A stretch of DNA of 64,000 bases, from IMG/VR virus record IMGVR_UViG_2925897562_000001, one strand, 5' to 3'. This document shows positions 1 through 30,313 of this stretch, in pieces. This stretch comes from a virus (lineage: Duplodnaviria > Heunggongvirae > Uroviricota > Caudoviricetes). The notes beneath the pieces were generated by a model that saw only the letters and a list, made by a program, of their open reading frames with translations, was not told where the DNA came from and did no database searches. The number at the start of each line of letters is the position of its first letter. The stretch's first letter is position 1. The translations under genes and the position numbers were made by a program.

Positions 1-480
1 AACGATGAAAAGATCGTGCGGTCCAGTAAAACCAGCCAGAGACTCTTCGTTATTCAGACAATAGGTTATATAGACGCATCCCCATGTTTCACTGATATGC
101 ACCAACCCTTTGTCAGGGTGTATTCTGAAATAATTGCCAAGAAAAGGGTGTTTTTGGGTAACTCGCTCCCAATAACGGAACATATAGTCAATTATTGTTT
201 TTCGACAATCGTTAATCGCAGGAGAAACAACCACTGTACGGGAACACGAATACAGTATTGTTTGCAGGATGCTAATCACTGCCACAATAGAGGTTTCCCC
301 AATACCATGTGGTGTGGTGGCAGTGATTTTGGCTCCGGTGTTCTTTATCGCGTTAATAATTTTTGCTTGATGAGGTGTTAACTCAATATCAAGCAACTCT
401 TTTGCTGCCAGTTCCCAATTGTCTTTATACCGTTCTATCAGTGCTAACCAGGCAGATTCATTCTGTATACGATTAATCAC
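1..480 (-). CDS. hypothetical protein, partial (C-terminal part lies beyond window start)
   Basis: Own translation: uninterrupted minus-strand frame from GTG near 480 to position 1 (VINRIQNESAWLALIERYKDNWELAAKELLDIELTPHQAKIINAIKNTGAKITATTPHGIGETSIV...); absent from the ORF track only because no stop falls inside the window; start uncertain. Confidence 0.3.
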   Translation of the reverse strand, partial: MINRIQNESAWLALIERYKDNWELAAKELLDIELTPHQAKIINAIKNTGAKITATTPHGIGETSIVAVISILQTILYSCSRTVVVSPAINDCRKTIIDYMFRYWERVTQKHPFLGNYFRIHPDKGLVHISETWGCVYITYCLNNEESLAGFTGPHDLFIV

Positions 481-2970: not shown

Positions 2971-5701
<2,731 letters not shown>

Positions 5702-5729
5702 TTAATTAGAATAATTCGCATCGTGTTTG

Positions 5730-5756
5730 AACGGAAATTTAACACTAGTCACTTGT
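5730..5756 (-). promoter_or_regulatory. candidate late promoter for prt-pro (AAGTGACTAG box plus TTAAAT)
   Basis: box about 35 nt upstream of prt start; palindromic ACTAGT core. Confidence 0.35.
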
Positions 5757-5768
5757 TAAGGATTACCA

Positions 5769-8700
5769 ATGAACAAGCTATCTATGGGGGTGTTTCGCTG
5801 TTCAAGTGTCAGCGAAATATTGAAATACATTAGGGCAATAACATCTCACCGAGCGCCGATTAAATACGGCGTGGAAAAGGTGGAAGGCAAAAGCTATGAC
5901 CGACTGCGCCGTGAGGCGAATCAGAAGGCGATAGATTTGCTTAATTCGCTGGTGGACGGCGCGACACTGACAGATGAACAGCGCCAGATCCTGGCTGGGT
6001 ACACCGGTGAAGGCGGCATTGGCGGGTCCGTCTCCGAATATTACACACCAAAGCCGATCGCTGAAGGTGTCTGGGAGATCATGAAGCTCTACGGCGCGGA
6101 CGTAGGTAACACTCTGGAACCATCGGCGGGAACCGGCGTTTTTAATGAGACAAAACCGGTTGGTACGGTGATGACCGCGACTGAGATCAGCAGTGTTTCC
6201 GGTCGTATAAACCAGCTGTTGCACCCGGAAGACAGCGTACAGATTTCTCCGTTCGAACAACTGGCTGTAAGCACGCCTAACGATTCATTCGACCATGTTG
6301 TGGGTAACGTTCCGTTCGGTGGTCGTGATAACACACGCAACATCGATAAGCCTTACGCAGAAGAAACGGACATGGGTTCTTACTTCATGCTCCGCATGCT
6401 GGACAAGATAAAGCCAGGCGGATTCATGTGCGTGATTGTGCCGCCGTCCATTGTTTCAGGTTCAAACATGAAGCGGTTACGCCTGCGCCTATCACGGAAA
6501 GCTGAATTTCTTGGTGCCCACCGCTTGCCTACCGGTACTTTTGACGCAAACGGGACCAGTACAGTTGTTGATGTGGTGCTGATGCGCAAACATCCGGCAG
6601 AGATGGCTGAGAAAATCCCCCTGGTGGATGAAAGCACTCTCGAATCGGCAAATGTGCTTTGGCCAACGTTTATTTCTGGCAAGTGGTTTGAAAAGGACGG
6701 CCGCCGGTTTGTTCATGGCACCCAGGAAAAGGGCTTCCAGGGGCGTATTGAGGTTCGTGCCGACGGTCAGATTGATAACCAGGCTCTTAAAGCGAAGCTG
6801 ATTCATCGTTTCGAAAGCCGTATCGACTGGTCTTTGCTCGATATGGCTGAACCGTCACCGACCGCAGACGTTGTTGGTGAAGGGGAAATGCGCCTGATTA
6901 ATGGCGTATGGCAAAAATATGCTGGTGGTCGCTGGATTGAAGCTGATGCCGGGAAGGAACTTAAGATCGATGCTGCCAGTTATGGCGCGGATAGCTGGGA
7001 GGCTCTTCAGCGTAACCTGACTACAACAGAAGGCCGTCTCGGCATGACATTTACCCAGATGGCAAATGTCCGCGATAAGTACACCACATCAATCAGCGAC
7101 GATATGGTGCAGCTGGTGGACTGGATTAACAGCCAGCCTGAAAAATACCGTGAACGCTTGTATCGCGGGGCGATGATTGGCCGGATGTTAATTGAATATC
7201 AGGACATGAAGGCCGCCGGGCATAGTGCTGAACAAATCGAACAGCAGCGCCTTTCTCTGGTATCCCGTTTGCAGGCAGAGATTGACCGTTTTGGTAACCC
7301 CGGTCGCGGTCCGATAGCGAAATTGTCGGGGAGCGGTGCGCGCGCCTGGTTTGCTTTCCGTGGTGCAATTAAGCTGGATGGCACTATTTCTGACGAGCTG
7401 ACAGGGAAGCTGGTTACGCATGATTCCAGCGCAAGTTATGACTCCACCAGCTATCAGGACACCCTGCGTTATCTCTATAGCGATCTCACCCGCGATCCAA
7501 TCCAGCTCGATGATTTCCGCCTTGCGTTTACCGGCGAACTGCCAGCCAGTGATGAAGAGTTGCTTAATTTATTGGCCAGCACCCCTGGTATTGCGGTTTC
7601 ACCGTATGGCGGGATTGTTCCGTTCGCCCGCGCCACCAGCGGCGACATTAACGAGATAGTGGCTCCAAAACAGGAATTCCTCGCCACACTCCCCGACGGT
7701 CCAGTAAAGAACAACGTCCTTAATCAGCTGGCAGCTATCGAAGAGAAGCGCATCAAGACGCCAGCAGAGAATATCCGGTTTAAGCTCAATAGCCGTTGGT
7801 TCGACCGTTCCGTCATTCTGGAATTTTTGCAGGAAAACGGCTATCCGGATCTGCGCTATGTGCAGTCAGTGCAGCTGGAAGGCGACGAAATGGTTTCTGA
7901 CACCTATCACGGTGGTGATGGTCTGTTCGTCGGGCACCGATACGGTGTCGTCCAGCGCAAGGATAAAGAAACAGGTGAGATTCGCTACGAGTGGGACCGT
8001 AAATCAGGTGAAAACGCGACCGGGTTCCCGGCACAGCTGGAAAAGTATCTCAATGGTGCGCGTATCGGTGGCAAAGATAGCGCGACGGCGAACGGCTACC
8101 GCGAGCAGATGGCACTGCTTGAGGACCAGTTCAATAAGTGGATCAAGACGCACGATCGCTACGATGAGCTGGTTGCCAAATACAACGATGTGTTCAATAG
8201 CAATATCCCGTATGAACACTCTGGCGATCCGCTTGGGTTGAAGGGATTAAGCGGTAAGCGCCAGCCATTTGATTACCAGAATAGCGAGGTGCGCCGACTG
8301 TCCGAAGATGGGCGCGGCATCCTGGGCTTCGGCACCGGGCTGGGTAAAACCACGACCGCGCTGGCGCTTGAGGCGTTCAACTATGAGAACGGTCGCTCCA
8401 CCCGTACTGCGTATGTAGTGCCTAAATCAGTGCTGGAAAACTGGTATTACGAAGCAAAAGAATTCCTGAGTGAAGAGGCATTCAGTAACTACCTGTTCGT
8501 CGGTCTTGATGTGCTGATGGATGGCGATCAGATTCGCCAGGTGCCGGTGCTCGATGAGAACGGTAAACCTGTTCTTGGTACTGATGGCACTCCAGTTATG
8601 CGCGATGCCTTAAAACTGGCAGATGAAGCCACTATCACGGCGCGGATGAACGCGATCCCGCACTCAAATTACCGTGCAGTCGTGTTTACCAAAGAACAAT

Positions 8701-11700: not shown

Positions 11701-12536
11701 TCACCACAGCACAGTTTGGCACCATTGGCATTTACAGCAATAAAGACGAGATCAAGCAGACAATGGACGCAGCAAGCGCGCGCATTGCAGCAGAACGGAA
11801 AGCCAATCTGAATCATGCAGTCGCCGCGCTGACTCAATCGTGGGTAACAGCAATCAGGAAGGCCGCCACCACAGGGAAAATCACACCGGCAATTGCGGAT
11901 GTCGTAAACGACGGCTCTAAATTTATGGATGCCTATCAAATGGATGCGGTGCAGTTGCCATCAGCCTATGGGCAACTCAGCTATCGCATGACCTACAACC
12001 TGGTATCAATGTTTACCGACCTTGCCATCCTTGGGCTGGTGGACCTTAACGAGGTTACGCCGGAATTGCTCAGCATGCGCAAGAATCATGTGGAGATATT
12101 GCACAGAATTAACACGGTACTTGCCGGGCGCACCGATGAAGAGAAACAGGCAGACGCTGATCGGATAAACCTGGCCCTTGGCAACATCACGGAGGAAGAA
12201 ATTGCCGCCAGAAACGAGAAACAAGAAGAGTTATCATCAATACAGGGTGATGCCACCAGCATAGCTCAGTCTCTTGGTCTGAATTATCGCGTATCCACCG
12301 CCGACCTGAAGATGATGTACGCACCAAAATTCGCCGCTGGCGAGGTATTTGGGCTTCAGGAAGCCTCCGGCATGAAAGGGGTTCTTTTCCGTGCGAAAGA
12401 CGCAATCAAGGCGAAATTCGGCGCTCGCTGGTTGCCAGCGAAGGCGAAGAACAGCGACTTCCCAGGTAACTGGTGGATTATCGAGACAAAACACAACGTG
12501 GCGGACGTTCTGGCCGTCATCCAACAATACGCATAA
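5769..12536 (+). CDS. darB: DarB-like defence-against-restriction protein (N6-adenine methyltransferase domain fused to SF2 helicase)
   Basis: 2255 aa; AdoMet motif LEPSAGTGVF and NVPF(GG) motif IV near N-terminus; Walker A GFGTGLGKTT and DEGH box (VIADEGHNYRN) mid-protein. Confidence 0.85.
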   Translation: MNKLSMGVFRCSSVSEILKYIRAITSHRAPIKYGVEKVEGKSYDRLRREANQKAIDLLNSLVDGATLTDEQRQILAGYTGEGGIGGSVSEYYTPKPIAEGVWEIMKLYGADVGNTLEPSAGTGVFNETKPVGTVMTATEISSVSGRINQLLHPEDSVQISPFEQLAVSTPNDSFDHVVGNVPFGGRDNTRNIDKPYAEETDMGSYFMLRMLDKIKPGGFMCVIVPPSIVSGSNMKRLRLRLSRKAEFLGAHRLPTGTFDANGTSTVVDVVLMRKHPAEMAEKIPLVDESTLESANVLWPTFISGKWFEKDGRRFVHGTQEKGFQGRIEVRADGQIDNQALKAKLIHRFESRIDWSLLDMAEPSPTADVVGEGEMRLINGVWQKYAGGRWIEADAGKELKIDAASYGADSWEALQRNLTTTEGRLGMTFTQMANVRDKYTTSISDDMVQLVDWINSQPEKYRERLYRGAMIGRMLIEYQDMKAAGHSAEQIEQQRLSLVSRLQAEIDRFGNPGRGPIAKLSGSGARAWFAFRGAIKLDGTISDELTGKLVTHDSSASYDSTSYQDTLRYLYSDLTRDPIQLDDFRLAFTGELPASDEELLNLLASTPGIAVSPYGGIVPFARATSGDINEIVAPKQEFLATLPDGPVKNNVLNQLAAIEEKRIKTPAENIRFKLNSRWFDRSVILEFLQENGYPDLRYVQSVQLEGDEMVSDTYHGGDGLFVGHRYGVVQRKDKETGEIRYEWDRKSGENATGFPAQLEKYLNGARIGGKDSATANGYREQMALLEDQFNKWIKTHDRYDELVAKYNDVFNSNIPYEHSGDPLGLKGLSGKRQPFDYQNSEVRRLSEDGRGILGFGTGLGKTTTALALEAFNYENGRSTRTAYVVPKSVLENWYYEAKEFLSEEAFSNYLFVGLDVLMDGDQIRQVPVLDENGKPVLGTDGTPVMRDALKLADEATITARMNAIPHSNYRAVVFTKEQYARIPLRDDTVDEHAQDMLYDFVAAGRVASAMDSDSHRKEAARRRVLSEYSDTGTEKAEKYPYFEDMGFDSVIADEGHNYRNSYKNGREASQLAYLPTSAVAQSARDMAIKNAYLMKKNGGRGPVLLTATPVVNTPIDAYNMLSHVLPKEYWQNMGIYGPDDFVKFFGKTRLETVQKISGEVEEKMALVGFENLDALRGIFHRWVTLKTAEDVKDTVEIPELDEHQQDAPLTEEQLAAYEELRQQAEAAAKANNGVTTSVNEDGVIEHEKARPIFSIIRDMDRVCTDMDLYYRRITYRFLPEYADAVQQLADSLPKQATSEDDDSDDSITQQSQYSLIDKGEFIQLQVPEAFEQEVNKRLARFGIDEQTVTHPVTPKYAKLIATLKEFFPEGKQIIFTDEKTQHQKLKRIICNALNLEPSKVGILNAQTVAEAGKTGKKLKAVKPPKELPDEPTDAQIAKYNEQMALYDAYIAQQNEMSLGGLEKIAADFQEGRTPIIICNKKAEVGINLHRGTTDIHHLTLPWTPASIAQRNGRGARVGSNRASVRVHYYCGKGSFDEYRLKTLKRKAGWISDILRSDKSEMENADANDMIEMQMYTAKDDGERLAMMQVQMDKAKAAKRARQKEQATIDLQNYIKAQHAAGEDVEVLTAELERSKAELEKTTADVAKFKQAVMAKAADNADWKARWGSVHHTDRMLLAQYRASLKSAIQRKANISQAISRYEKLLNRTQKAATDIKRLRPLVEDAINKGILDVDPDLVNHANEFLVIGDRSWRVGQYYDCAGDIVRIKSLDFDSQRADVEIIFTFKGTKSGNWDVKTLDKQVDVTPDEDAVMQKISGGVSIAGINDIVSCDDFYRFQQRGMIKITDSYGVQTTESGYSIDFVGTYTDPLKHAVYPDRRDSALKSSIAKWVLGMMSEGNNRQIRSAETFLVELFGSNYGDVIASYGDTLSPEAIQEKIADAIARMPEKTSQGATRNGDSELEVTNAIFGTNEFRASDYEITTAQFGTIGIYSNKDEIKQTMDAASARIAAERKANLNHAVAALTQSWVTAIRKAATTGKITPAIADVVNDGSKFMDAYQMDAVQLPSAYGQLSYRMTYNLVSMFTDLAILGLVDLNEVTPELLSMRKNHVEILHRINTVLAGRTDEEKQADADRINLALGNITEEEIAARNEKQEELSSIQGDATSIAQSLGLNYRVSTADLKMMYAPKFAAGEVFGLQEASGMKGVLFRAKDAIKAKFGARWLPAKAKNSDFPGNWWIIETKHNVADVLAVIQQYA

Positions 12537-12569
12537 CAGGAGCGCCCGGTTCGCCGGGCGTCGCATAAT

Positions 12570-13010
12570 ATGGCCACACTATCTGATACAATAAAACCGA
12601 ATAAAACATATCTTGAGGCGGTACTCCGTACAGCGTTGTTAGGAAAGACAGAAGACGAATACGTTGATTTCTTCCTGTCAGGGCTACGCGGGCGATTACT
12701 GAAAAATCCCCGCCTGTACCGCAGCTATGGTCCATACTGGCCGGAAATTAAAAAATTATTACTGGAGCGCGGTTATGGTAATTTCGGTCGTCTCGTTGAC
12801 CGTGACGTTCGCAAAATTTACCGTTATGACCGCCCGGCGCTAACACTCATAGCCGCGACGCTCTACAGCCAGGAGCGTTTTGATAATGGTCAGATATACT
12901 CAGCCTGGCATTTACTGCCAGTGCCTGAAGAAGTTGACGACCAGGACTATGAGTTTGAGTCTTACGATTTGGAAGTTGAAGCCTTGGCACAGGCTGGAGA
13001 GAAAACTTGA
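12570..13010 (+). CDS. hypothetical protein immediately downstream of darB (ddrA-like)
   Basis: 146 aa, ATG 12570, same strand, 34 bp after darB stop. Confidence 0.5.
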   Translation: MATLSDTIKPNKTYLEAVLRTALLGKTEDEYVDFFLSGLRGRLLKNPRLYRSYGPYWPEIKKLLLERGYGNFGRLVDRDVRKIYRYDRPALTLIAATLYSQERFDNGQIYSAWHLLPVPEEVDDQDYEFESYDLEVEALAQAGEKT

Positions 13011-13255
13011 AAAAGCGATACTACACAGTAAAGCATGGGACGCTACGAGCATTACAAGAGTTTGCTGATAAGCATAACGTTGAGGTGCGCAGGGAAGGGG
13101 GAAGTAAAGCTCTGCGCATGTACCGCCCGGACGGGAAATGGCGGACGGTGGTCGATTTCAAAACTAACAGTGTTCCCCAGGGCGTCCGCGATCGGGCATT
13201 CGAAGAATGGGAGCAGATCATCATAGATAACGCATTGCTCCTGAATGCAGATTGA
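13007..13255 (+). CDS. hypothetical small protein (ddrB-like)
   Basis: 82 aa, TTG start overlapping the previous stop (translational coupling). Confidence 0.45.
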   Translation: MKKRYYTVKHGTLRALQEFADKHNVEVRREGGSKALRMYRPDGKWRTVVDFKTNSVPQGVRDRAFEEWEQIIIDNALLLNAD

Positions 13256-13257
13256 CA

Positions 13258-13284
13258 ATTTTGCCCGGAATTACCGGGCAAAAT
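13258..13284. terminator. bidirectional intrinsic terminator between convergent ddrB-like and RSH genes
   Basis: TTTTGCCCGG-AATTA-CCGGGCAAAA, perfect 10-bp stem with A/T runs on both sides. Confidence 0.6.
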
Positions 13285-13291
13285 TAAGCAA

Positions 13292-14428
13292 CTATCCTTC
13301 GTTACGAAGATGCTTATCTAAGAATTTTGTAAACTGGTTTGTTGAGCCAAAATAGTTGGGGTAGGCTTTTTTTAGTGACTTAATGTTATCTGTAGCAACG
13401 AGAACAGATATCAATACATTAGGATTAGAATCGTCTTTATTTAAGGCCTCAAGGGCTTCATCTGCTTCTTTTGTTTTAAATGCGCGAACAGACACTAGGA
13501 ACATTTTTTTGTTTTTTGTATTGGGCTTGTTTTCTGCATTTCTCATTGTTACTAAGTAATGCCCCTTATGATTTTTTGGCAACTTCTTAATCAAATTCGC
13601 GTCAGAAGTTAAATTTAAGGCGATGGTGTATGTGCTTAGTTTCCTCCGTACAGATAAAGTCCGTTCCAGCTCTTTAAGCTCGCCTTCATACTGAGATACA
13701 ACTAGCTCATCAAGAGTGCAGGCTTTTTCGTCGTGCGCTACAAGACATCCGGCTAGATAGAAAAATCGTCTCCATTCTGGATGCCCTTCACTTGAAGTTT
13801 TCAGCTTGATACCTTCAAGGGTATCAATTATTTCAAGGCTGGTAGCCCAAGCATGCTGCAATTGAGTTCTTAACTGTATCTCAATCTTTGTTTTTCGCCA
13901 CGGATATTGATCCTCTTTCTGATCGAAGCAACTGTATGCAAGGTGGATTCCACTATAGCCGCTGTCTTTGGGAGTAAGATAATCATACTCTTTAACAATC
14001 CTATGAACAGATTTGCTTTTTAAAAGACGTTCCTTTAGCTGTATCAACTGGTCTAAGTTTCTGACAATGGCCCTACATCCGCCAACGTCCTGCATCCGTG
14101 TTAATTTAATTGCATTGCTAGTTCTGCCTCCATCAAGACTAGGACGCTCTAGTTTATCTATTATGGTAGAAAGTCGCTTAAGTCTTCTTGCAACGAGAAT
14201 CTTTTTGTCCTTGTCAACCTTAGCAGCTGCTCTTGCTAAATGATTTTTCATGAGCATTAATGGATAAAGATGCAGCTCACGGAAATTTTGTATCATTTCA
14301 ATAGATTGCTGCCTTTCTTCGTCACTACACCCGTGCCTTATCAATTGAGCAGCCCTATCAATTTGAGATTTTGAATATTTCAACTTGCATTTTTGACTTT
14401 GATAAACTTCATTCCCCATTGCTTTCAT
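13292..14428 (-). CDS. RelA/SpoT-homologue synthetase-domain protein; CapRel-like fused toxSAS toxin-antitoxin candidate
   Basis: 378 aa; nucleotidyltransferase motifs GGRTSNAIK, DVGGCRAIV, YSGIHLAY and EIQLRTQLQHAWA; ~170-aa C-terminal extension after the synthetase fold. Confidence 0.75.
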   Translation of the reverse strand: MKAMGNEVYQSQKCKLKYSKSQIDRAAQLIRHGCSDEERQQSIEMIQNFRELHLYPLMLMKNHLARAAAKVDKDKKILVARRLKRLSTIIDKLERPSLDGGRTSNAIKLTRMQDVGGCRAIVRNLDQLIQLKERLLKSKSVHRIVKEYDYLTPKDSGYSGIHLAYSCFDQKEDQYPWRKTKIEIQLRTQLQHAWATSLEIIDTLEGIKLKTSSEGHPEWRRFFYLAGCLVAHDEKACTLDELVVSQYEGELKELERTLSVRRKLSTYTIALNLTSDANLIKKLPKNHKGHYLVTMRNAENKPNTKNKKMFLVSVRAFKTKEADEALEALNKDDSNPNVLISVLVATDNIKSLKKAYPNYFGSTNQFTKFLDKHLRNEG

Positions 14429-14521
14429 CCATTTTAAATGATTTACATGCTGTTACATCTAATGATAAAGCGGTTAGAAAATCAATGGAGAATGTAACCA
14501 CAAAATTACTGTATGTAATTG

Positions 14522-15163
14522 TTAAAAATAATTATGCTTGCCTGTTAATACCCCTTTCGGCACTTTTTTTTGTTCCAGTATCTGGGTGCCCAGAATTATG
14601 TTAATCAGTGGACTTAGTAACGATGGTTCTTGGCGGGCCTCAACTTCTCCAGCCATTGCCCTGATGTAGTCGGCGCTGGCAACGTTGTTGTATTCCGTCG
14701 CAAAGCAACATAGTAACGTCAGAACATGCTCTGTCGTTATTTCGCTCCAGTTGATGTTGAAAAATTCATCGCCTTTTTTATCGTGTTCGGAATCGAAGAT
14801 GCTTTGGTGGAGAATGTATTTGCCGGATTCCTTGCGCGGTAACTTGATTGCTTTCTGGCGTTCCAGCTCCTTATAAATCTGCATTGCCTCAATTAGTACC
14901 GGCCTGCCGTTCATGAAGGGATCGCGCAACCTTACACGCTGGCCAACTCGACCAGTAATAAAGCTGTTTTCCTCTTCCACCAGCACGATAAAACCCTTTT
15001 CCTCTTTTTCTCGCAATTCGCGCAGCAGCTGGAGTTCCATATCGCGGCGGCGTTCAGGGTAGCTGGTCCGCTCAGCCATTATCAGCTCGTTATTGATCCA
15101 TGCAGCAGTCATTGACGCCGGTTTGCCGACGCTCATCGAAACAACGCATATTTTCTTATCCAT
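14522..15163 (-). CDS. hypothetical protein, 213 aa (possibly Mat-like; function unknown)
   Basis: ATG 15163 with strong SD (AGGGGG); the longer ORF-track frame to 15310 lacks an SD; between ref and the RSH gene on the same strand. Confidence 0.55.
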   Translation of the reverse strand: MDKKICVVSMSVGKPASMTAAWINNELIMAERTSYPERRRDMELQLLRELREKEEKGFIVLVEEENSFITGRVGQRVRLRDPFMNGRPVLIEAMQIYKELERQKAIKLPRKESGKYILHQSIFDSEHDKKGDEFFNINWSEITTEHVLTLLCCFATEYNNVASADYIRAMAGEVEARQEPSLLSPLINIILGTQILEQKKVPKGVLTGKHNYF

Positions 15164-15284
15164 AGCGCCCCCTACAAAAAAGAAAAGCCACCAGCGGCGG
15201 CTTAGCAATACAACTGAAGGTAGCGCCCGGTACTCAGACTGTGCCGTCCATGGAATATTTGAAAAGGGATCCATCCGTACCGGG

Positions 15285-15312
15285 CATGTGATGATTCTGA
15301 CTGAAGTCACTT
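15285..15312 (-). promoter_or_regulatory. candidate late-promoter box (AAGTGACTTC) upstream of the 213-aa gene
   Basis: same box family as upstream of prt and the head gene; -10 element weak. Confidence 0.25.
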
Positions 15313-15352
15313 GTCAGTTGTCAATCATTTATCATTAAAAATAATATATTTA

Positions 15353-15913
15353 TTAGTGCATGATGTTTGCCATCTCATAGGCGTCAGCCAGTAACTCCAT
15401 CTCTGACTTGTTCAGCAAGGTGAATTCTTTCTTGCCTCCAACCACACCATCGGCATGAACAGGGACCAGCCAGGGGTATTTTGCTCTTACTTCAGCCGGT
15501 GCTGCATGCTGGTGGTGCCATCTGCAAAGGGGCAATTGCTTTTTGTGACAACCCGGCGCGGTACGACCGGAGATATGGTGCAGAGACACCTCTTCAGATA
15601 TTACTCCATGCATGTAGCAGGCAATGCAGGGGAGAGTGCCAAGAGCATTGGCGATAGTCTGTTCCTCCTCCGTCGGTGTTCGCCCCTTCAAGCCACGAGA
15701 TTTTATTTTTACCGCACTTTTCCGCGTTTTGCTGGCTGGTGGGCGCTCTTTCTGTTTAGCGATACGGCGGTCGATAGAATCCCGCATTTTCTGATATTGC
15801 GATTCTCGCCAGGCGGGGTCAGCCAACTTTTCCCGTTGCCGAGCGATCGCTCGTTCTCTGGCTGCCTTCTGCCACTCGCGGCGCTGTTCAAGTTTTTGTT
15901 CGATTGTTTTCAT
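15353..15913 (-). CDS. ref: Ref recombination-enhancement HNH endonuclease
   Basis: 186 aa from ATG 15913 (MKTIEQKLEQRREW...), basic N-terminal arm, HNH-type Cys/His cluster; adjacent to cre. Confidence 0.9.
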   Translation of the reverse strand: MKTIEQKLEQRREWQKAARERAIARQREKLADPAWRESQYQKMRDSIDRRIAKQKERPPASKTRKSAVKIKSRGLKGRTPTEEEQTIANALGTLPCIACYMHGVISEEVSLHHISGRTAPGCHKKQLPLCRWHHQHAAPAEVRAKYPWLVPVHADGVVGGKKEFTLLNKSEMELLADAYEMANIMH

Positions 15914-25244: not shown

Positions 25245-25329
25245 TACATTGAAAAGGCATAGTTTGTGAAAGCGGGGTTTGTAGGCGCGCCACGCTGGGG
25301 GCTAATCACATTTCTCCCCCATCTTGCCG

Positions 25330-25581
25330 TTATTTTTTTGGTGCATCCTCGTTCTGATACACCGGATCGCTCCCTTTTGGCAACTGGAGGCTTAACTGCC
25401 GGTAGTGCCGTAGCCGTTCCATGAAATAGGCGCGCAGGTTTTCCGGTTGCTCACGGGCCACCTGCTCTGCAATCACAGGTATATTCAGCCGTTCTTTGTA
25501 AGCAACGCCGCTGGCGGCAAGGTCTACGTTCACCTTGTCTCGCTCTTCCTGGCTTTTAGCTGCTATATTTCGATCTGACAC
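25330..25581 (-). CDS. hot: Hot, homologue of DNA polymerase III theta subunit
   Basis: 83 aa; [43 protein letters not shown] closely parallels E. coli HolE. Confidence 0.85.
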
Positions 25582-25613
25582 AAGAAACCTCCAGGAGTTA
25601 GTGGATCAGGCAC

Positions 25614-25964
25614 ATGCACAATAACGTTCTCAATGTTAGCCGTTCAATTCAGACAATCAGAGACTGGACCAGTGTGGTGGCATCAATCCCATTGCGGAAC
25701 AGCATAGACGAACTGCAAATTCGTGTATTGAATCCGAATCAGGCTAATAAGCAATTGCGCTTTATTTTGACGCTGAAAAGTGAAACAGAGGGGATAAAGC
25801 ACAGCGTAAAAGTGTTTTCTGAGGCCATTCTGCTTAATGGGAAGCTCCGGCATCTGGTAAGGCCAGAACGTCAATATCCTGACGTCCTGGCGCGTGAAAA
25901 AGACCTTCTTTCTGAAGTTCAGGATAGGGTGATCGATTTCGTCAAATGCTATCCCCTGCATTGA
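25614..25964 (+). CDS. hypothetical protein (weak call)
   Basis: 116 aa plus-strand ORF in a minus-strand gene run; protein-like composition but no SD checked. Confidence 0.25.
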   Translation: MHNNVLNVSRSIQTIRDWTSVVASIPLRNSIDELQIRVLNPNQANKQLRFILTLKSETEGIKHSVKVFSEAILLNGKLRHLVRPERQYPDVLAREKDLLSEVQDRVIDFVKCYPLH

Positions 25965-26233
25965 GGGCAGGTGTTCCCTTCCGCAAAGTAGGGAAAATTG
26001 CTATCAAGTTCATCACACCATCTGCGTTGGTCGTAGCACCAAAACGCCTCCCACGGTGCACGGAAATACTTCATCCACCAGGACACTCGATCAGGTATAT
26101 CTGCTGGTGGCAGTTCTTCTGGCAATAATTTGCCTGATAATTCCCTTTCCGCCCGCGACAGCATTTTTTTGAGGCTCGCGTTCTCTTTTTCAAGCTCATC
26201 TACGCGCACCTGTAATTCAGCTTTCGTTGGCAT
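25949..26233 (-). CDS. hypothetical small protein with C-terminal CxxC (lxr-like)
   Basis: 94 aa from ATG 26233 (MPTKAELQVRVDELEKENASLKK...), coiled coil, ends ...CPQCRG. Confidence 0.4.
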   Translation of the reverse strand: MPTKAELQVRVDELEKENASLKKMLSRAERELSGKLLPEELPPADIPDRVSWWMKYFRAPWEAFWCYDQRRWCDELDSNFPYFAEGNTCPQCRG

Positions 26234-27155
26234 GGTCCACCTCATGCTTTTCAGCCACCAGCGGCAATAAAGCCCTGGCCATCTTATGAACCAATAGTGC
26301 ATCAATAATGCCAAGCGTATGCCCCGGCTTAATGTTTAATGCCGCCTCAAGGTGACACCTTTCCAGGTCACTTTTCTCGGCTTGTTTATGATGATCTGGT
26401 GTAATAACGTCGCCCAAAACACGGCTAATTCTTTCTCGTAATTGCTGGGTGCCAGCACACTTGATCGCTGTATCGTGGAGACGGTTAACCAGTTCGCGAT
26501 AAACATGCGGCTTAATGCGGATACGTTCACCGGTGACGCCCTTTCCTGGCGCTGGCACCGAACTATCCGGAATATCCGGATAGTTGCCAGCCTCGTAAGC
26601 TACCCACAGCCAGTGCATGAATGTTTCAGTGGACACACAACCACAGTCCACATCGATTTTCCCGCGTTGCTGTTCCAGCCATTGCCCAAAATCCAACCTG
26701 TAAGTCTTACTTTCAAGTTCATCACCATTGAACTCGACTTTCTGCGACGCTATGAGAGCTGATTCGTATTGTTCGCGAGTGACAACTGACTGGTATTCAT
26801 CGCTATCAAGGCCACCAATTGGAAGCTCAATCTCACAACAAAAATTGCGCCCAAAGAAAGTGTCTTTTTTGTGGTCTGAGCCAAAAGCAAAAGTCGCGCA
26901 TGGTGCCATTAAATTGACACTGGGTAGGTAACAATAACTCATTCCATCAGGCCACCCGCCGCACTTAGGCAGCTCCTTCACTAACAAGTCGATAAGCTTC
27001 ATTTTTTTATCATCTTTGCAAGCCGCCAAAGCCATTTGGGCAAGTGCCAATACTTCATCTGCCGTATATCCAGCACCGTGACCATACATTTCGATACGGG
27101 AAATAATCTCTGATATACGCTCTTCAGTGATTCTGGTCATTTCTTTTTGCGCCAT
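26217..27155 (-). CDS. hypothetical protein
   Basis: 312 aa ORF; Cys-rich, no motif recognised. Confidence 0.5.
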   Translation of the reverse strand: MAQKEMTRITEERISEIISRIEMYGHGAGYTADEVLALAQMALAACKDDKKMKLIDLLVKELPKCGGWPDGMSYCYLPSVNLMAPCATFAFGSDHKKDTFFGRNFCCEIELPIGGLDSDEYQSVVTREQYESALIASQKVEFNGDELESKTYRLDFGQWLEQQRGKIDVDCGCVSTETFMHWLWVAYEAGNYPDIPDSSVPAPGKGVTGERIRIKPHVYRELVNRLHDTAIKCAGTQQLRERISRVLGDVITPDHHKQAEKSDLERCHLEAALNIKPGHTLGIIDALLVHKMARALLPLVAEKHEVDHANES

Positions 27156-27511
27156 TTCTTTTCACATTCCTTAGTCCATTTTTCAATGTTCATTTTGGCA
27201 ATATCGGTCATTCCATCACCTAAGAAATACTTTCTCCGGTATGTCTTGCACTTAAACCACACTACAACAGCCACCAGCCAGAAAATAAAAGGCCATACAG
27301 CAATACCAACGACTGCCGCGATAAAGCTCAATATCCATAAATGAAGCTCTCCAACTTCTGTTTCCGGCAATATTCTTAAAGAATTAAACAGTAGGCTGAA
27401 CGCATGGTCGTATGCATTGGCAGTATAAGACATGCAATCCATATAATTAAAGTCATAGCCTGCGGCTGCCGCCCATAATGGGCGGTCAAGAAAATGTTTT
27501 AGTGTCATCAT
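27137..27511 (-). CDS. hypothetical membrane protein
   Basis: 124 aa, two predicted TM helices (LHLWILSFIAAVVGIAVWPFIFWLVAVVVWF), Lys-rich tail. Confidence 0.45.
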   Translation of the reverse strand: MMTLKHFLDRPLWAAAAGYDFNYMDCMSYTANAYDHAFSLLFNSLRILPETEVGELHLWILSFIAAVVGIAVWPFIFWLVAVVVWFKCKTYRRKYFLGDGMTDIAKMNIEKWTKECEKKWRKKK

Positions 27512-27517
27512 ATAAAT

Positions 27518-27811
27518 TTAAGGTTCAGACCAGTTATCTTCAATAGCAATGCTTAATCTTTGTAGCCATTCTGCTAATTTCAGCATTGCTTCTCTTTCGC
27601 TTAAACCACGAGGAAAATCATCAAGCGAAATTGTTGGCTTGAAGCCCCCGTAATTATCCATTTCAACTGTCAGATTTTGCTCCAGCACGGTATTCCTTAC
27701 GCGGCTATTGTGCCGAAGCAAATATACTGAACGTGATTTATTGGTTTTATGGTCAAACTGATATTCGGTAAGTATCATCTGGCTTTTGCCATGACTATTA
27801 CCTCTCCACAT
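27518..27811 (-). CDS. hypothetical protein
   Basis: 97 aa from ATG 27811 (MWRGNSHGKSQ...) with SD GAGG. Confidence 0.4.
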   Translation of the reverse strand: MWRGNSHGKSQMILTEYQFDHKTNKSRSVYLLRHNSRVRNTVLEQNLTVEMDNYGGFKPTISLDDFPRGLSEREAMLKLAEWLQRLSIAIEDNWSEP

Positions 27812-27818
27812 ACTTACC

Positions 27819-27941
27819 TCACTTAATAAAACAACTCCATGCGTAGTTGATGATTTTTTCCCACGTAATATAAATCTGCACTCCGGCAGTAAAACCAAAG
27901 CCAACAATTGCTGAAAAAATCAAAACATTTACTTTTGACAT
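27819..27941 (-). CDS. putative small membrane peptide (40 aa)
   Basis: own translation MSKVNVLIFSAIVGFGFTAGVQIYITWEKIINYAWSCFIK; stop 8 nt before next start. Confidence 0.3.
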   Translation of the reverse strand: MSKVNVLIFSAIVGFGFTAGVQIYITWEKIINYAWSCFIK

Positions 27942-27989
27942 TATAAATTTTCTCTCGGTGTCGTAGGTGATAGCACCATAATTGATAAT

Positions 27990-28223
27990 TTAGTGAGTTA
28001 GCAGTTCCATTTTTTGGATGATTTCCGCATGAGCATCATCGTTATCAACACTTAACTCGTTTAATGCCTCTCGCACTACATCAACTTCTTCAGGCTGAAA
28101 GAAGTCGTCGCGGTAATCACCAAATAGAACCGAAACCAGCCTGCCACCAGCAACATCAAGATTGGCGCTAACAGGTGGCTCTTTGCCATCCTCAAATTCG
28201 ACAACAAAAGTTAATTTTCCCAT
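27990..28223 (-). CDS. hypothetical acidic protein
   Basis: 77 aa ORF, Asp/Glu-rich. Confidence 0.45.
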   Translation of the reverse strand: MGKLTFVVEFEDGKEPPVSANLDVAGGRLVSVLFGDYRDDFFQPEEVDVVREALNELSVDNDDAHAEIIQKMELLTH

Positions 28224-28225
28224 CG

Positions 28226-28300
28226 TTACCCCCAGAAGATAAAAATAGCGGCAATCGCCATAGCTACGCCTACAATCGCAAATGCTTCAGGCCAGCTCAT
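28226..28300 (-). CDS. putative small hydrophobic peptide (24 aa)
   Basis: own translation MSWPEAFAIVGVAMAIAAIFIFWG; ATG overlaps upstream stop (TAATG), stop 2 nt before next ATG. Confidence 0.3.
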   Translation of the reverse strand: MSWPEAFAIVGVAMAIAAIFIFWG

Positions 28301-28632
28301 TACCGCACCTCAAGTCTCCATGCCGCCTGACCAATCCGGCTGGCATGGGTATCTTTGGATACTGTTCCGTCTTTAGCCAGCTCCATAAGAATTTTGCGCA
28401 AATCTGCCGAGCGCCATTCTTCATCAGGAAATTCCTTCTCCATTGCCAACCGCAGATTCCAAGTTGCTATCGTGAATGGATATTCACCGCCGAGAGCTTT
28501 CTCTTGTAGGGCAGCACGGGAACGCATCACCTGCAAAACCTTCTCTTTTACATCCATCATTTCGCCTCCTGCGGCGGTTCTGGTAGCGGCATCCAGTGTG
28601 ATGGAATCCACGACGCACCAGGAATTATCCAA
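28300..28632 (-). CDS. hypothetical protein
   Basis: 110 aa ORF, tightly packed in operon. Confidence 0.45.
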   Translation of the reverse strand: MDNSWCVVDSITLDAATRTAAGGEMMDVKEKVLQVMRSRAALQEKALGGEYPFTIATWNLRLAMEKEFPDEEWRSADLRKILMELAKDGTVSKDTHASRIGQAAWRLEVR

Positions 28633-29438
28633 CCATCATTAGCGTCAGGATGTCCCGGTATGTAAGTCGCCCACTTCATTCGCCAGTCACCTTTCCCGTC
28701 AAACTCCCTGGCAACAAGAACAGCTGTTTTGCTATCCGGCATTCGCTCACTACAGCTTATCCAATCATCCAGAGTTACCGGAGAATTGCCATTTACCAAG
28801 TCAGCTCGAACATATAGCGTGTCATCATGGTGCTGATTGTGGCTGCACCACGTTAATTCGCTTAACTCGCCATCTTCTGGCCATACTCCAGCCGTTTGCA
28901 GCCAGATATGGGCTGGCGCATCTTTGCAAGGTGTATTAACTGGCAACTTGTAAGTTTGGCTTACAGGTTCGGCACCATGAAGCATGGCGTCGCTCCGCTC
29001 TATGCCATCCAGCGCGATTCGCAGTGCATGAATTGTGGTAGAGCTATCGTTTGGGGCTATTCCATATCGCTCGAATACAGCTAAATGGTTGCGCATAATC
29101 TCAGGCGTAAGCTCTTTGTAAGCATAAGCAAGAGGCTCTGATGCATTATCCGGCACAACCGACGCAGGCGCGGCAGCATAAACAGGAATAACGTCCGCTT
29201 GCTCTTTATTGCTTTCATCCGTTAAAGCCCAGAATAATTTCCCGGCCGGATGTTTGAAAATATAAGCAACTGGCTCTGCTTCCAGCGATGCCAGCGTAAT
29301 TTCAGCCAGCTTGAGGTGAATAACCGCCGCATCATAAGCGCCTGGGACTCTTCCCACCGCAACGCGAAGAACCTCAATATTCTTCTTAGCCTGCTCAATC
29401 AACTGCTCTTTGGTGAACTCTTTGGTAATCGTGATCAT
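28557..29438 (-). CDS. hypothetical phage protein with DUF551-like C-terminus
   Basis: 293 aa; C-terminal WISCSERMP...WIPSHWMPLPEPP resembles the phage DUF551 signature (from memory). Confidence 0.5.
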   Translation of the reverse strand: MITITKEFTKEQLIEQAKKNIEVLRVAVGRVPGAYDAAVIHLKLAEITLASLEAEPVAYIFKHPAGKLFWALTDESNKEQADVIPVYAAAPASVVPDNASEPLAYAYKELTPEIMRNHLAVFERYGIAPNDSSTTIHALRIALDGIERSDAMLHGAEPVSQTYKLPVNTPCKDAPAHIWLQTAGVWPEDGELSELTWCSHNQHHDDTLYVRADLVNGNSPVTLDDWISCSERMPDSKTAVLVAREFDGKGDWRMKWATYIPGHPDANDGWIIPGASWIPSHWMPLPEPPQEAK

Positions 29439-29950
29439 GCCGCGTTTCCTTCTTTCTTATTAACAATTACACCGTCATATATTTCATTAAGGTGCCCTCT
29501 CAACTCCATGCGCCTTAATGCAGATAACATGTAATCGCATTCAACCTGCTTATTTCCAGTAAATGGCTTATCGTCAGGATTACCCCAACAGCAATTACCC
29601 TTGGGCCACCCATGTACTTTCCGTACTCTTCCGTTAACAACGTGAAGTAATCCCCAGCCAGGTGGTAAATCCTCAATTGAAATAATTCCCGGCTCACTAA
29701 TAAAGAATCGCCAGTCGCCCATTCCAAGAGATGGATTTTTACGAAAACGCTTTTTTCTATCTGCCAACAAGTCAGCACGAGAACATTTCGCCTCTATCAG
29801 GCATGATGCTGAATTTCTGAATCCCATAGCATCTGGCTGTTCTCCGGTACTGGTTACAGCTATAAAGCGGTCATGAAAACAAACCTTGAACCCGTTGCGC
29901 TTAAGGAACTTGTACGCAATCTGACAGAGTTCGCGGTGTGTTAACGCCAT
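29435..29950 (-). CDS. putative PD-(D/E)xK-fold nuclease-like protein
   Basis: 171 aa from ATG 29950 with SD AAGGAG; motif EQPDAMGF...CLIEAKCS. Confidence 0.45.
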   Translation of the reverse strand: MALTHRELCQIAYKFLKRNGFKVCFHDRFIAVTSTGEQPDAMGFRNSASCLIEAKCSRADLLADRKKRFRKNPSLGMGDWRFFISEPGIISIEDLPPGWGLLHVVNGRVRKVHGWPKGNCCWGNPDDKPFTGNKQVECDYMLSALRRMELRGHLNEIYDGVIVNKKEGNAA

Positions 29951-29951
29951 A

Positions 29952-30140
29952 TCACTCTCCTTTAGTGCGCAAGTGGTTTTTCCAGCGGTTTTGCGCCGCG
30001 CTGGGCTTTTTGCAAAAACCACAATCCATCATCCCGTAATATTTCATCAACCCCATCCGTCGGTTGCTGAGTCTCACCCACTGCCAGACGCCAGGAGCGT
30101 TTCTACGAACTAACAGAATCTTTGCTTTACGGTTTTTCAT
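29952..30140 (-). CDS. small Arg/Lys-rich protein (62 aa), paralogue of next ORF
   Basis: MKNRKAKILLVRRNAPGVWQWVRL...; first 7 codons identical to the 30137..30313 ORF. Confidence 0.3.
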   Translation of the reverse strand: MKNRKAKILLVRRNAPGVWQWVRLSNRRMGLMKYYGMMDCGFCKKPSAAQNRWKNHLRTKGE

Positions 30141-30313
30141 CTTACAGCGTACCCTTTCTTCCGCCTGTTCTGTGACGCAGTAGGCTTACGCTTTGCGGCA
30201 AAAGCCACCTGACCAAATGGATGGAGTACCGCTATCTTATGGTTGCTAATAACCAGCTCCACCACACGCACAGGTCGCTGTAAAAAAAGTCGTTTTGCCT
30301 TACGGTTTTTCAT
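30137..30313 (-). CDS. small Arg/Lys-rich protein (58 aa)
   Basis: own translation MKNRKAKRLFLQRPVRVVELVISNHKIAVLHPFGQVAFAAKRKPTASQNRRKKGYAVR; stop overlaps next ATG. Confidence 0.3.
   Translation of the reverse strand: MKNRKAKRLFLQRPVRVVELVISNHKIAVLHPFGQVAFAAKRKPTASQNRRKKGYAVR

What the first reader, a model, noticed from the sequence alone, without database searches (positions are those of the whole stretch)
13292..14428. CapRel-like RelA/SpoT synthetase-domain protein in the slot where P1 carries res-mod
The 378-aa protein has all four synthetase motifs of small alarmone synthetases (GR..NAIK, DVGGCR, YSGIHL, EIQLRTQLQHAWA) and a ~170-aa C-terminal extension. This is the architecture of fused toxSAS toxin-antitoxins such as CapRel, which abort infection by pyrophosphorylating tRNA when a phage capsid protein binds the C-terminal domain. 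It sits between the DarB anti-restriction module and ref, separated from ddrB by a bidirectional terminator, where P1 (as I recall the map) has mat-res-mod-lxc-ulx-IS1-hxr. A prophage-borne defence gene swapped in for the EcoP1I restriction system is the best candidate for the system of interest.
Basis: partly seen in the sequence, partly recalled or inferred. Interest (0 to 1): 0.8.

Follow-up and report, generated by a model that had tools for sequence, protein, structure and literature searches.

The report
CapRel anti-phage toxin-antitoxin gene, known family

Summary
The ORF is real: window 13292-14428, minus strand, 378 aa (375 aa if the start homologous to SJ46's is used). It is a full-length homologue of CapRelSJ46, the founding fused toxSAS toxin-antitoxin defence protein. 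Against PDB 7ZTB it scores E = 5e-185 at 73.7% identity. All 12 residues shown by mutagenesis to matter in CapRelSJ46 are conserved. These are the catalytic G-loop Tyr, two ATP-binding Arg, the YXXY autoinhibition motif, the interface residues, and L280/L307. An AlphaFold model matches 7ZTB/9ERV over its whole length (TM 0.82-0.93) and reproduces the cysteine-free beta-beta-alpha-beta pseudo-zinc-finger sensor.

The gene sits in a 1,267-bp AT-rich cassette exactly between the lxc and mat stop codons. P1 carries res-mod (EcoP1I) there, and phage SJ46 carries its own CapRel there. Published work already calls this position a variable region and reports CapRel as common cargo of E. coli P1-like phage-plasmids.

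What remains open is the trigger. The sensor is only 61% identical to SJ46's, and this untested allele is about six times commoner in complete E. coli genomes (93 vs 14 of 5,426). The system is known; interest is low.

The parts
13292..14428 (-). CapRel-family CDS of 378 aa plus stop. An alternative start at 14419 gives 375 aa and matches the start of CapRelSJ46.
   Evidence: ORF list. PDB 7ZTB E = 5e-185 over res 4-374. PADLOC PDC-S33 6.7e-86 and phrog_4773 9e-148, both full length. Both ATGs are conserved in SJ46.
13604..14419 (-). Toxin part (res 4-275), equivalent to the toxic CapRelSJ46(1-272) construct: N-terminal helices, the toxSYNTH nucleotidyltransferase core and connecting helices.
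   Evidence: Alignment to SJ46, 77% identity over this part. Construct boundary from PMC9712102. Model secondary structure.
13841..14185 (-). RelA_SpoT (PF04607) synthetase core, res 82-196. It includes ATP-coordinating R82 and R119 and the G-loop Y158 (codon 13955-13957).
   Evidence: Pfam 3e-12, 47.2 bits against GA 27. R79/R116/Y155 of SJ46 map to R82/R119/Y158. All three are invariant in 45 homologues.
13295..13603 (-). C-terminal antitoxin/sensor (res 276-378): end of anchor helix alpha9, the cysteine-free pseudo-zinc-finger domain (strands 289-297, 310-318 and 338-345, helix 319-333) and the C-terminal helices.
   Evidence: AF2 model topology. Full-length Foldseek match to 7ZTB/9ERV, TM 0.82-0.93. 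61% identity to SJ46 in the pseudo-ZFD and 45% over SJ46 res 301-320. Highest family entropy, 2.27 bits. No Cys in res 276-378 (sequence).
13352..13363 (-). YPNY (res 356-359), the YXXY autoinhibition motif that plugs the ATP site in the closed state of CapRelSJ46.
   Evidence: Y352/Y355 of SJ46 map to Y356/Y359. A355-Y356-P357-N358-Y359 are invariant in 45 homologues. Role of the motif from PMC9712102.
13254..14520 (.). The 1,267-bp cargo cassette that replaces the 6.3-kb res-mod(+IS5) segment of P1.
   Evidence: blastn: P1 homology ends at window 13253 (P1 9752, lxc stop) and resumes at 14521 (P1 3469, mat stop). GC is 34-42% against about 50% in the flanks.
13257..13285 (.). Palindromic hairpin (AATTTTGCCCGG-AATTA-CCGGGCAAAATT) in the 36-bp gap between the convergent lxc and CapRel genes. 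It may be a transcript-end structure but is not a canonical intrinsic terminator.
   Evidence: RNA fold dG -18.4 (+ strand) and -21.8 (- strand). The terminator scan did not report it and no U-tract follows the stem.
14429..14521 (-). 93-bp spacer between the mat stop and the CapRel start, presumed to hold the gene's own promoter and RBS. No terminator separates it from mat.
   Evidence: The promoter scan found no consensus site inside the spacer; the nearest minus-strand site, 14604-14577, lies inside mat. Blocks CCATTGATTT and ATGTAACA are conserved with SJ46. CapRelSJ46 was functional when cloned with its native upstream region (PMC9712102).
13007..13255 (+). lxc (bof), the conserved left flank of the slot.
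   Evidence: 97.5% identical to P1 and SJ46 lxc. Annotations.
14522..15274 (-). mat, the conserved right flank of the slot. It is co-oriented with and upstream of CapRel.
   Evidence: 94.7% identical to P1 and SJ46 mat. P1 Mat is 250 aa. The 262-aa ORF starts at an upstream GTG.

Best explanation
The gene encodes a CapRel-family fused toxin-antitoxin anti-phage defence protein, a natural allele of CapRelSJ46. It is carried as accessory cargo in the lxc-mat variable slot of a P1-like phage-plasmid.

Inferred mechanism, by homology to CapRelSJ46:
1. In uninfected lysogens the C-terminal pseudo-zinc-finger domain folds back onto the N-terminal toxSYNTH domain.
2. The YPNY motif (res 356-359) inserts between R82 and R119 and blocks the ATP site, so the enzyme stays off.
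3. When another phage infects, a phage-made protein, or a phage-host protein complex, binds the pseudo-ZFD and anchor helices and holds the protein open.
4. The toxSYNTH domain then transfers pyrophosphate from ATP to the 3'-CCA end of tRNAs. Translation stops and the infecting phage cannot replicate.

Shown here: family membership, conservation of every functionally tested residue, the fold, and the genomic slot. Inferred: enzymatic activity, autoinhibition and defence. Unknown: the trigger and phage range of this allele.
For: Full-length hit to the CapRelSJ46 crystal structure 7ZTB (E = 4.9e-185) and to its Gp54 complex 9ERV, at 73.7% identity.

All 12 residues tested by mutagenesis in CapRelSJ46 are identical: A77, R79, R116, Y155, L280, L307, V338, L339, A341, A351, Y352 and Y355 (roles from PMC9712102).

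Pfam RelA_SpoT scores above its gathering threshold. PADLOC PDC-S33 gives 6.7e-86, and CapRelSJ46 hits the same model at 7e-87.

The AF2 model has pLDDT 82 and pTM 0.78. Its best PDB matches are 7ZTB and 9ERV at E ~3e-40 and TM 0.82-0.93 over ~360 columns. Housekeeping SAS enzymes match only the N-terminal half at E ~1e-6.

The family-wide pattern is as published: conserved enzyme core (entropy 0.81), hypervariable sensor (2.27), invariant YPNY.

The slot is the same as CapRel in phage SJ46, with the cassette precisely bounded by the lxc and mat stop codons.

Identical DNA (100% over the 1,322-bp query) is shared by at least 25 of the matching records, and the allele occurs in 93 of 5,426 complete E. 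coli genomes, with 95 of 99 places on plasmids. This argues for a maintained, functional gene.

A published survey reports CapRel as common in E. coli P1-like phage-plasmids (bioRxiv 10.1101/2025.09.12.675607).
Against: There are no functional data for this allele. The sensor differs substantially from SJ46's: 61% identity in the pseudo-ZFD and 45% around the beta6-beta7 loop, including a 1-aa insertion. Neither the trigger nor defence activity can therefore be transferred from SJ46. The consensus scan found no promoter in the 93-bp upstream spacer, so expression in the lysogen is assumed rather than shown. The closest phage-database copy (vB_EcoM-673R5) carries two 1-nt indels; these could be sequencing errors or gene decay.
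Confidence: 0.9

Rival explanations
1. It is an ordinary small alarmone synthetase (RelP/RelQ type) that makes (p)ppGpp and adjusts host physiology for the prophage. On this reading it is not a defence toxin.
For: It has a RelA_SpoT domain. There is a weak match to the NCBIfam YjbM GTP diphosphokinase model and to RelP/RelQ structures. Databases label family members 'GTP pyrophosphokinase'.
Against: The NCBIfam YjbM score is 35.5 bits against a cutoff of 320. Structural identity to RelP/RelQ is 20-25% and covers only the N-terminal half. The protein is 74% identical over its full length to an enzyme shown to pyrophosphorylate tRNA. The extra C-terminal sensor with its invariant YXXY plug has no counterpart in housekeeping SAS enzymes.
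Confidence: 0.02
2. It is a toxSAS that kills by synthesising (pp)pApp and depleting ATP, like FaRel or Tas1, instead of modifying tRNA.
For: Both outputs exist within the toxSAS family (PMC9712102; PMC11782079 abstract). Substrate choice cannot be read from sequence with these tools.
Against: The toxSYNTH part is 77-79% identical to CapRelSJ46, which pyrophosphorylates tRNA in vitro. The CapRel subfamily is described as translation-inhibiting.
Confidence: 0.04
3. It acts mainly as a plasmid-addiction or stabilisation module for the phage-plasmid and not as an anti-phage sensor.
For: It is a toxin-antitoxin on a low-copy plasmid prophage. The listed records carrying it are mostly about 92-100 kb plasmids.
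Against: Toxin and antitoxin are one polypeptide, so differential decay of the antitoxin after plasmid loss, which is the basis of addiction, is not available. In CapRelSJ46 activation is by ligand binding. P1-like elements already carry phd-doc for addiction. The sensor is hypervariable across the family, as expected for an arms race with phages. The other occupants of the same slot include R-M and candidate defence genes.
Confidence: 0.03
4. It is an inactive remnant, carried along but no longer functional.
For: The 673R5 copy has two single-base indels. Several database cluster members are truncated or partial.
Against: The ORF in the window is intact. Every catalytic, regulatory and interface residue is conserved. 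At least 25 independent E. coli isolates from humans, poultry, cattle, meat and water carry 100% identical DNA over the query.
Confidence: 0.02

Closest known systems
CapRelSJ46 (Salmonella phage SJ46; PDB 7ZTB, 9ERV; Zhang et al. 2022 Nature, PMC9712102; 2024 Nature, PMC11578894)
   Same: It has the same single-polypeptide architecture of toxSYNTH, anchors, pseudo-ZFD and a C-terminal helix with YXXY. Identity is 73.7% over the full length, and all 12 mutationally tested residues are identical. The predicted fold is the same (TM 0.82-0.93). The host element is the same type (Punavirus, P1-like), and the insertion slot between lxc and mat is identical, in the same orientation.
   Different: The sensor has diverged: 61% identity in the pseudo-ZFD and 45% around the beta6-beta7 loop, with a 1-aa insertion. 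Two of eight Gp54-contact positions differ (S279->K, R314->K). CDS DNA identity is only ~70%, with saturated synonymous sites, although the flanks are 95-100% identical. This allele is untested. It is about six times commoner in complete E. coli genomes (93 vs 14 of 5,426).
CapRelEbc (Enterobacter chengduensis) and CapRelKp
   Same: They are fused CapRel homologues that also defend E. coli. They show that swapping the pseudo-ZFD region changes phage specificity (PMC9712102).
   Different: CapRelEbc protects against T7 and senses T7 Gp0.4 only in complex with host FtsZ, not a capsid protein (PMC13423816). Their sequences were not retrieved here, so identity to this allele was not measured.
Bicistronic toxSAS toxin-antitoxin systems (PhRel/ATphRel of mycobacteriophage Phrann; FaRel2/ATfaRel2)
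   Same: They have a homologous toxSYNTH toxin that pyrophosphorylates tRNA 3'-CCA ends. PhRel is prophage-encoded and excludes other phages (PMC9712102).
   Different: In those systems the antitoxin is a separate gene. Here no adjacent antitoxin ORF exists, because the neighbours are lxc and mat, and the antitoxin is the fused C-terminal domain.
EcoP1I type III restriction-modification (res-mod) of phage P1
   Same: It occupies the same lxc-mat slot of the P1 backbone and likewise serves to exclude foreign phage DNA.
   Different: The proteins and mechanism are unrelated: DNA cleavage against a translation block. It has two genes (~6.3 kb with IS5) and the opposite orientation relative to mat.

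Membership tests
CapRel (fused toxSAS toxin-antitoxin defence) | N-terminal RelA/SpoT-type (toxSYNTH) nucleotidyltransferase domain | tested here: met
   PF04607 at 3e-12, 47.2 bits against GA 27, res 82-196. The fold matches the 7ZTB toxSYNTH domain and SAS structures.
CapRel (fused toxSAS toxin-antitoxin defence) | Catalytic G-loop tyrosine (Y155 in SJ46) and ATP adenine-coordinating arginines (R79, R116) | tested here: met
   Y158, R82 and R119 align to these positions. All three are invariant in 45 homologues.
CapRel (fused toxSAS toxin-antitoxin defence) | Antitoxin fused in the same polypeptide: a C-terminal pseudo-zinc-finger domain (three-stranded sheet with a helix between beta7 and beta8, no conserved cysteines) plus a C-terminal helical extension | tested here: met
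   The AF2 model shows E289-297, E310-318, H319-333, E338-345, H346-355 and H362-374. The full-length Foldseek match to 7ZTB/9ERV gives TM 0.82-0.93. There is no Cys in res 276-378.
CapRel (fused toxSAS toxin-antitoxin defence) | YXXY autoinhibition motif and the conserved intramolecular interface (A77, R116, V338, L339, A341, A351 in SJ46) | tested here: met
   YPNY lies at res 356-359. A80, R119, V342, L343, A345 and A355 are all identical to SJ46. The motif is invariant across 45 homologues.
CapRel (fused toxSAS toxin-antitoxin defence) | Full-length sequence homology to an experimentally validated CapRel | tested here: met
   7ZTB at E = 4.9e-185, query res 4-374 against chain res 1-370. 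The same PADLOC model, PDC-S33, is hit by both proteins.
CapRel (fused toxSAS toxin-antitoxin defence) | Sensor domain is the most variable part of the protein (an arms-race signature) | tested here: met
   Column entropy is 2.27 bits in the pseudo-ZFD against 0.81 in the synthetase core. dN against SJ46 is 0.28-0.35 in the sensor and 0.16 in toxSYNTH.
CapRel (fused toxSAS toxin-antitoxin defence) | Encoded on a prophage or mobile element | tested here: met
   The window is a P1-like phage-plasmid (darB, cre, mat, ref and others). 95 of 99 E. coli occurrences are on plasmids.
CapRel (fused toxSAS toxin-antitoxin defence) | The N-terminal domain alone is toxic and is neutralised by the C-terminal domain | not testable with these tools
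   This needs expression of res 1-275 with and without res 276-378 in E. coli.
CapRel (fused toxSAS toxin-antitoxin defence) | Pyrophosphorylates tRNA 3'-CCA ends on activation | not testable with these tools
   This needs a [gamma-32P]ATP/tRNA assay. It is inferred from 77-79% identity of the toxin part to CapRelSJ46.
CapRel (fused toxSAS toxin-antitoxin defence) | Confers phage resistance and is activated by direct binding of a phage-derived trigger to the sensor | not testable with these tools
   This needs phage challenge, escape mutants and co-expression toxicity assays.
Housekeeping small alarmone synthetase (RelP/RelQ/YjbM) | Stand-alone synthetase of about 200-250 aa scoring above the family cutoff, with no regulatory C-terminal domain | tested here: not met
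   NCBIfam YjbM scores 35.5 bits against a cutoff of 320. The protein is 378 aa with a ~100-aa sensor. Identity to RelP/RelQ is 20-25% over the N-terminal half only.
Bicistronic toxSAS TA (FaRel2/ATfaRel2, PhRel/ATphRel) | A separate antitoxin gene adjacent to the toxin gene | tested here: not met
   The cassette 13254-14520 holds a single gene. The neighbours are the backbone genes lxc and mat.

The most novel reading that the evidence does not exclude
This allele is the predominant CapRel of E. coli P1-like phage-plasmids. Because its pseudo-ZFD has diverged, it may recognise a different trigger from CapRelSJ46: a different capsid class, an unrelated small phage protein, or a phage-host protein complex as with CapRelEbc. 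It would then protect against a different set of phages. The two alleles sit in near-identical backbones (flanks 95-100% identical, CDS ~70%). They would therefore form a natural allelic series, exchanged by recombination at the lxc-mat slot, that diversifies the immune specificity of P1-like lysogens.
Probability: 0.5. Interest if true: 0.35.

Novelty: already known. Interest (0 to 1): 0.15.

Why it matters
It matters mainly as a correct annotation. Hundreds of database entries call this protein 'RelA/SpoT domain-containing protein' or 'GTP pyrophosphokinase', but it is a CapRel defence protein. PADLOC's unnamed candidate PDC-S33 is the same family.

Biologically it illustrates that the lxc-mat slot of P1-like phage-plasmids swaps between defence cargos: type III R-M, CapRel alleles and other candidates. 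It also shows that the commonest E. coli CapRel allele is not the one studied experimentally. Testing it against the SJ46 allele would give a clean natural experiment on how pseudo-ZFD sequence sets trigger specificity. No new kind of system is involved.

Tried and rejected
(1) Terminator claim. The consensus scan found no intrinsic terminator in the lxc/CapRel gap. The hairpin is strong but has no U-tract after the stem on either strand. I kept it as 'hairpin, function unknown'.

(2) Promoter. The consensus scan found no site inside the 93-bp upstream spacer. Alignment with SJ46 shows only short conserved blocks. No promoter is assigned.

(3) dN/dS for diversifying selection between the two P1-borne alleles. 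Synonymous sites are saturated (pS 0.81-0.97), so no ratio can be computed and only dN is reported.

(4) Recent domain swap of the sensor. No sampled homologue shares more than 68% identity in the pseudo-ZFD, and N- and C-terminal identities fall off roughly in parallel. There is no evidence for a recent swap.

(5) Literature on 'PDC-S33': zero papers. A general 'CapRel' search returned mostly amphipod papers, plus the three known CapRel studies and the toxSAS papers. None is on this allele.

(6) Other defence cargo in the window. The segments with no match at 80% identity or more in a P1-like reference (25.2-31.7 kb and 50.0-50.8 kb) encode DUF551 and Ead/Ea22-like proteins, unknowns, and a fused C5/N6 methyltransferase ORF. 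PADLOC gave no hits there beyond methyltransferase models.

(7) Rival enzymology. Housekeeping SAS was rejected on score, length and architecture. A (pp)pApp synthetase cannot be excluded by sequence alone, but is unlikely given the homology.
Full report
OBSERVATION. The ORF exists as described. It lies at window 13292..14428 on the minus strand and encodes 378 aa with no internal stops. Pfam RelA_SpoT matches residues 82-196 at E = 3e-12, 47.2 bits against a gathering score of 27. A second in-frame ATG three codons downstream, at 14419, corresponds to the start of the SJ46 protein. Both ATGs are conserved in SJ46, so the product is either 378 or 375 aa. Database entries of both lengths exist.

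WHAT IT IS. A search against PDB sequences gives 7ZTB as the top hit, at E = 4.9e-185 over query residues 4-374. 7ZTB is 'Structure of the Salmonella tRNA pyrophosphokinase CapRel', that is, CapRelSJ46 of Zhang et al. 2022 (PMC9712102). The next hit is 9ERV, CapRelSJ46 bound to Bas11 Gp54. Housekeeping alarmone synthetases follow only at E ~1e-8 and cover only the N-terminal half.

The protein is 73.7% identical to the CapRel encoded by Salmonella phage SJ46. I mapped every CapRelSJ46 residue whose role was tested by mutagenesis onto the window protein:
- ATP-coordinating R79 and R116
- G-loop Y155
- autoinhibitory-interface residues A77, V338, L339, A341 and A351
- YXXY residues Y352 and Y355
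- trigger-response residues L280 and L307

All 12 are identical (roles).

An AlphaFold2 model built on a 45-sequence alignment has mean pLDDT 82.2 and pTM 0.78. It matches 7ZTB and 9ERV over ~360 columns, at E ~3e-40 and TM 0.82-0.93. Its C-terminal topology is strand 289-297, strand 310-318, helix 319-333, strand 338-345, then two helices. That is the published pseudo-zinc-finger description: a three-stranded sheet with a helix between beta7 and beta8, plus a C-terminal helical extension. Residues 276-378 contain no cysteine.

PADLOC's unnamed candidate model PDC-S33 matches this protein over its full length at 6.7e-86 and matches CapRelSJ46 equally well at 7e-87. PDC-S33 is therefore the CapRel family.

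FAMILY PATTERN. The protein database holds 3,549 relatives at E <= 1e-10. In an alignment of 45 of them, at 51-78% identity to the query, the synthetase core is conserved (mean column entropy 0.81 bits). The pseudo-ZFD is the most variable region (2.27 bits), and A355-Y356-P357-N358-Y359 is invariant. This reproduces the published picture of a conserved enzyme and autoinhibitory plug with a fast-evolving sensor.

Against SJ46, identity is 77% over the toxin part, 61% over the pseudo-ZFD, and 45% over SJ46 residues 301-320, the beta6-beta7 loop region, where this allele has a 1-aa insertion. Of the residues reported to contact the second trigger Gp54 (PMC11578894), L270, D273, N275, L276, K278 and K316 are conserved. 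S279 is K and R314 is K here. No sampled homologue shares more than 68% identity with this sensor.

GENOMIC CONTEXT. The window is a P1-like phage-plasmid. Gene order is darB, ulx, lxc (+ strand), then CapRel, mat, ref, c8, cre, cra (- strand). Homology with reference P1 ends at window 13253, at the lxc stop codon, and resumes at 14521, at the mat stop codon. A 1,267-bp cassette therefore replaces the 6.3-kb res-mod(+IS5) segment of P1. The cassette is AT-rich, at 34-42% GC against about 50% in the flanks.

Phage SJ46 carries its CapRel in exactly the same slot and orientation. Between the window and SJ46 the flanks are 95-100% identical. The CapRel CDS is only ~70% identical at the DNA level, with saturated synonymous sites. 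Two old alleles therefore sit in near-identical backbones, which suggests cassette exchange by recombination in the flanks.

Other P1 relatives hold different things in the slot:
- RCS47: nothing
- JL22: a PIN-domain protein
- MH422554: an unannotated DUF2971/PDC-S31 protein
- Ro157c2YLVW: an AraC-type regulator plus an EAL protein

The literature already lists res-mod as 'variable region 1' of P1-like phage-plasmids (PMC9603915). It also states that E. coli P1-like phage-plasmids commonly carry CapRel (bioRxiv 10.1101/2025.09.12.675607).

PREVALENCE. This allele occurs in 93 of 5,426 complete E. coli genomes at 95% DNA identity or more, with at least 25 records 100% identical over the query. 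Of the 99 places, 95 are on plasmids, and the listed records are mostly about 92-100 kb. The SJ46 allele occurs in 14 genomes. The 90%-identity protein cluster has 313 members, named only 'RelA/SpoT domain-containing protein' or 'GTP pyrophosphokinase'.

HOW IT MOST LIKELY WORKS. The following steps are inferred from CapRelSJ46.
1. The pseudo-ZFD docks on toxSYNTH, and the YXXY motif blocks the adenine pocket between the two arginines.
2. A phage-derived ligand binds the pseudo-ZFD and anchors, and prevents this recoil.
3. The open enzyme pyrophosphorylates tRNA 3' ends and halts translation, restricting the infecting phage.

What is shown here is homology, residue conservation, fold and context. 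Activity, autoinhibition and defence are inferred. The trigger is unknown. CapRelSJ46 senses a capsid protein and also the unrelated Gp54. CapRelEbc senses T7 Gp0.4 only in complex with host FtsZ. 'Capsid' should therefore not be assumed for this allele.

Expression is also not established. The gene lies directly downstream of mat with no predicted terminator between them, and no consensus promoter was found in the 93-bp spacer. The SJ46 gene is known to work from its native upstream region.

- The neighbour is lxc, not ddrB.
- The 'bidirectional terminator' is a 12-13-bp palindromic hairpin, dG -18 to -22, without a U-tract on either strand, and the scan did not call it.
- The sensor/antitoxin is about 100 aa. 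The preceding ~80 aa after the Pfam domain belong to the toxin construct and anchor.
- The P1 order is mat-res-mod-lxc-ulx-darB.

RIVALS. A housekeeping (p)ppGpp synthetase is rejected: the YjbM model scores 35.5 bits against a cutoff of 320, similarity covers the N-terminal half only, and an extra sensor domain is present. A (pp)pApp-making toxSAS cannot be excluded from sequence but is unlikely at 77-79% identity to a tRNA-modifying enzyme. A plasmid-addiction role is unlikely for a single-polypeptide TA on an element that already has phd-doc. An inactive relic is unlikely given the intact ORF, full residue conservation and identical copies in many unrelated isolates.

VERDICT. The system is a CapRel allele in a published variable slot of P1-like phage-plasmids, so the kind of system, its mechanism and its occurrence here are already known. 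The residual interest is that this commoner allele, with its diverged sensor, has not been tested experimentally, so far as the searchable literature shows.

Noticed in passing
window 13254-14520; loci L003 (P1), L004 (RCS47), L005 (JL22) 1418-2368, L006 (MH422554) 1409-2449, L007 (Ro157c2YLVW) 1395-2969: The lxc-mat slot of P1-like phages is a cargo hotspot. P1 holds type III R-M there and RCS47 holds nothing. JL22 holds a 316-aa PIN_12 protein with a weak PDC-S34 match. MH422554 holds an unannotated 346-aa DUF2971 ORF matching PADLOC candidate PDC-S31. Ro157c2YLVW holds an AraC-type HTH protein plus an EAL-domain protein.
   Followed up: partly
window 13292-14428; L002 4894-6015: PADLOC's unnamed candidate single-gene system PDC-S33 is hit equally by this protein (6.7e-86) and by CapRelSJ46 (7e-87). 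PDC-S33 is therefore the CapRel family. No paper in the library mentions PDC-S33.
   Followed up: yes
window 12400-15381 vs L002 4001-6986: Between the window and phage SJ46 the flanking genes are 95-100% identical (ulx 100%, darB 98%, lxc 97.6%, mat 94.7%). The CapRel CDS is only ~70% identical in DNA, with saturated synonymous sites. Two ancient alleles sit in near-identical backbones, implying cassette exchange by flanking recombination.
   Followed up: partly
L001 (phage vB_EcoM-673R5) about 4919-6018: The closest phage-database copy is 99.8% identical in DNA. It has two single-base indels that split it into two annotated CDSs, 'hypothetical protein' and 'RelA/SpoT family protein'. These could be sequencing errors or a pseudogene.
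   Followed up: partly
window 14410-14428: There are two in-frame ATG codons three codons apart, MKA-MGNEVY. The second aligns with the start of the crystallised CapRelSJ46. Both are conserved in SJ46, but the two residues between them differ (KA vs LV). Neither has a good Shine-Dalgarno sequence.
   Followed up: partly
window 25260-31696: This is a patchy region with no match at 80% identity or more in the P1-like phage MH422554. Its ORFs include a DUF551 protein (28557-29438, -), an Ead/Ea22-like protein (30486-31211, -) and several with no Pfam or PADLOC hit, such as a 312-aa ORF at 26217-27155 (-).
   Followed up: partly
window 48920-51508 (-): An 862-aa ORF fuses an N-terminal C5-cytosine methyltransferase domain to a C-terminal D12-class N6-adenine methyltransferase domain, probably the P1 Dmt homologue. 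Its middle part (50033-50767) has no match at 80% identity or more in MH422554.
   Followed up: no
window 1-471: This stretch has no blastn match at 80% identity or more in reference P1 positions 1-60000, but it is covered by the P1-like phage MH422554. It lies near where P1 carries isaA-IS1-isaB.
   Followed up: no
window 14522-15310 (-): The mechanical ORF for mat starts at an upstream GTG and gives 262 aa. P1 Mat is 250 aa, which corresponds to the ATG at 15274 (MDPFSN...). Several P1-like records annotate a shorter Mat of about 213 aa.
   Followed up: no
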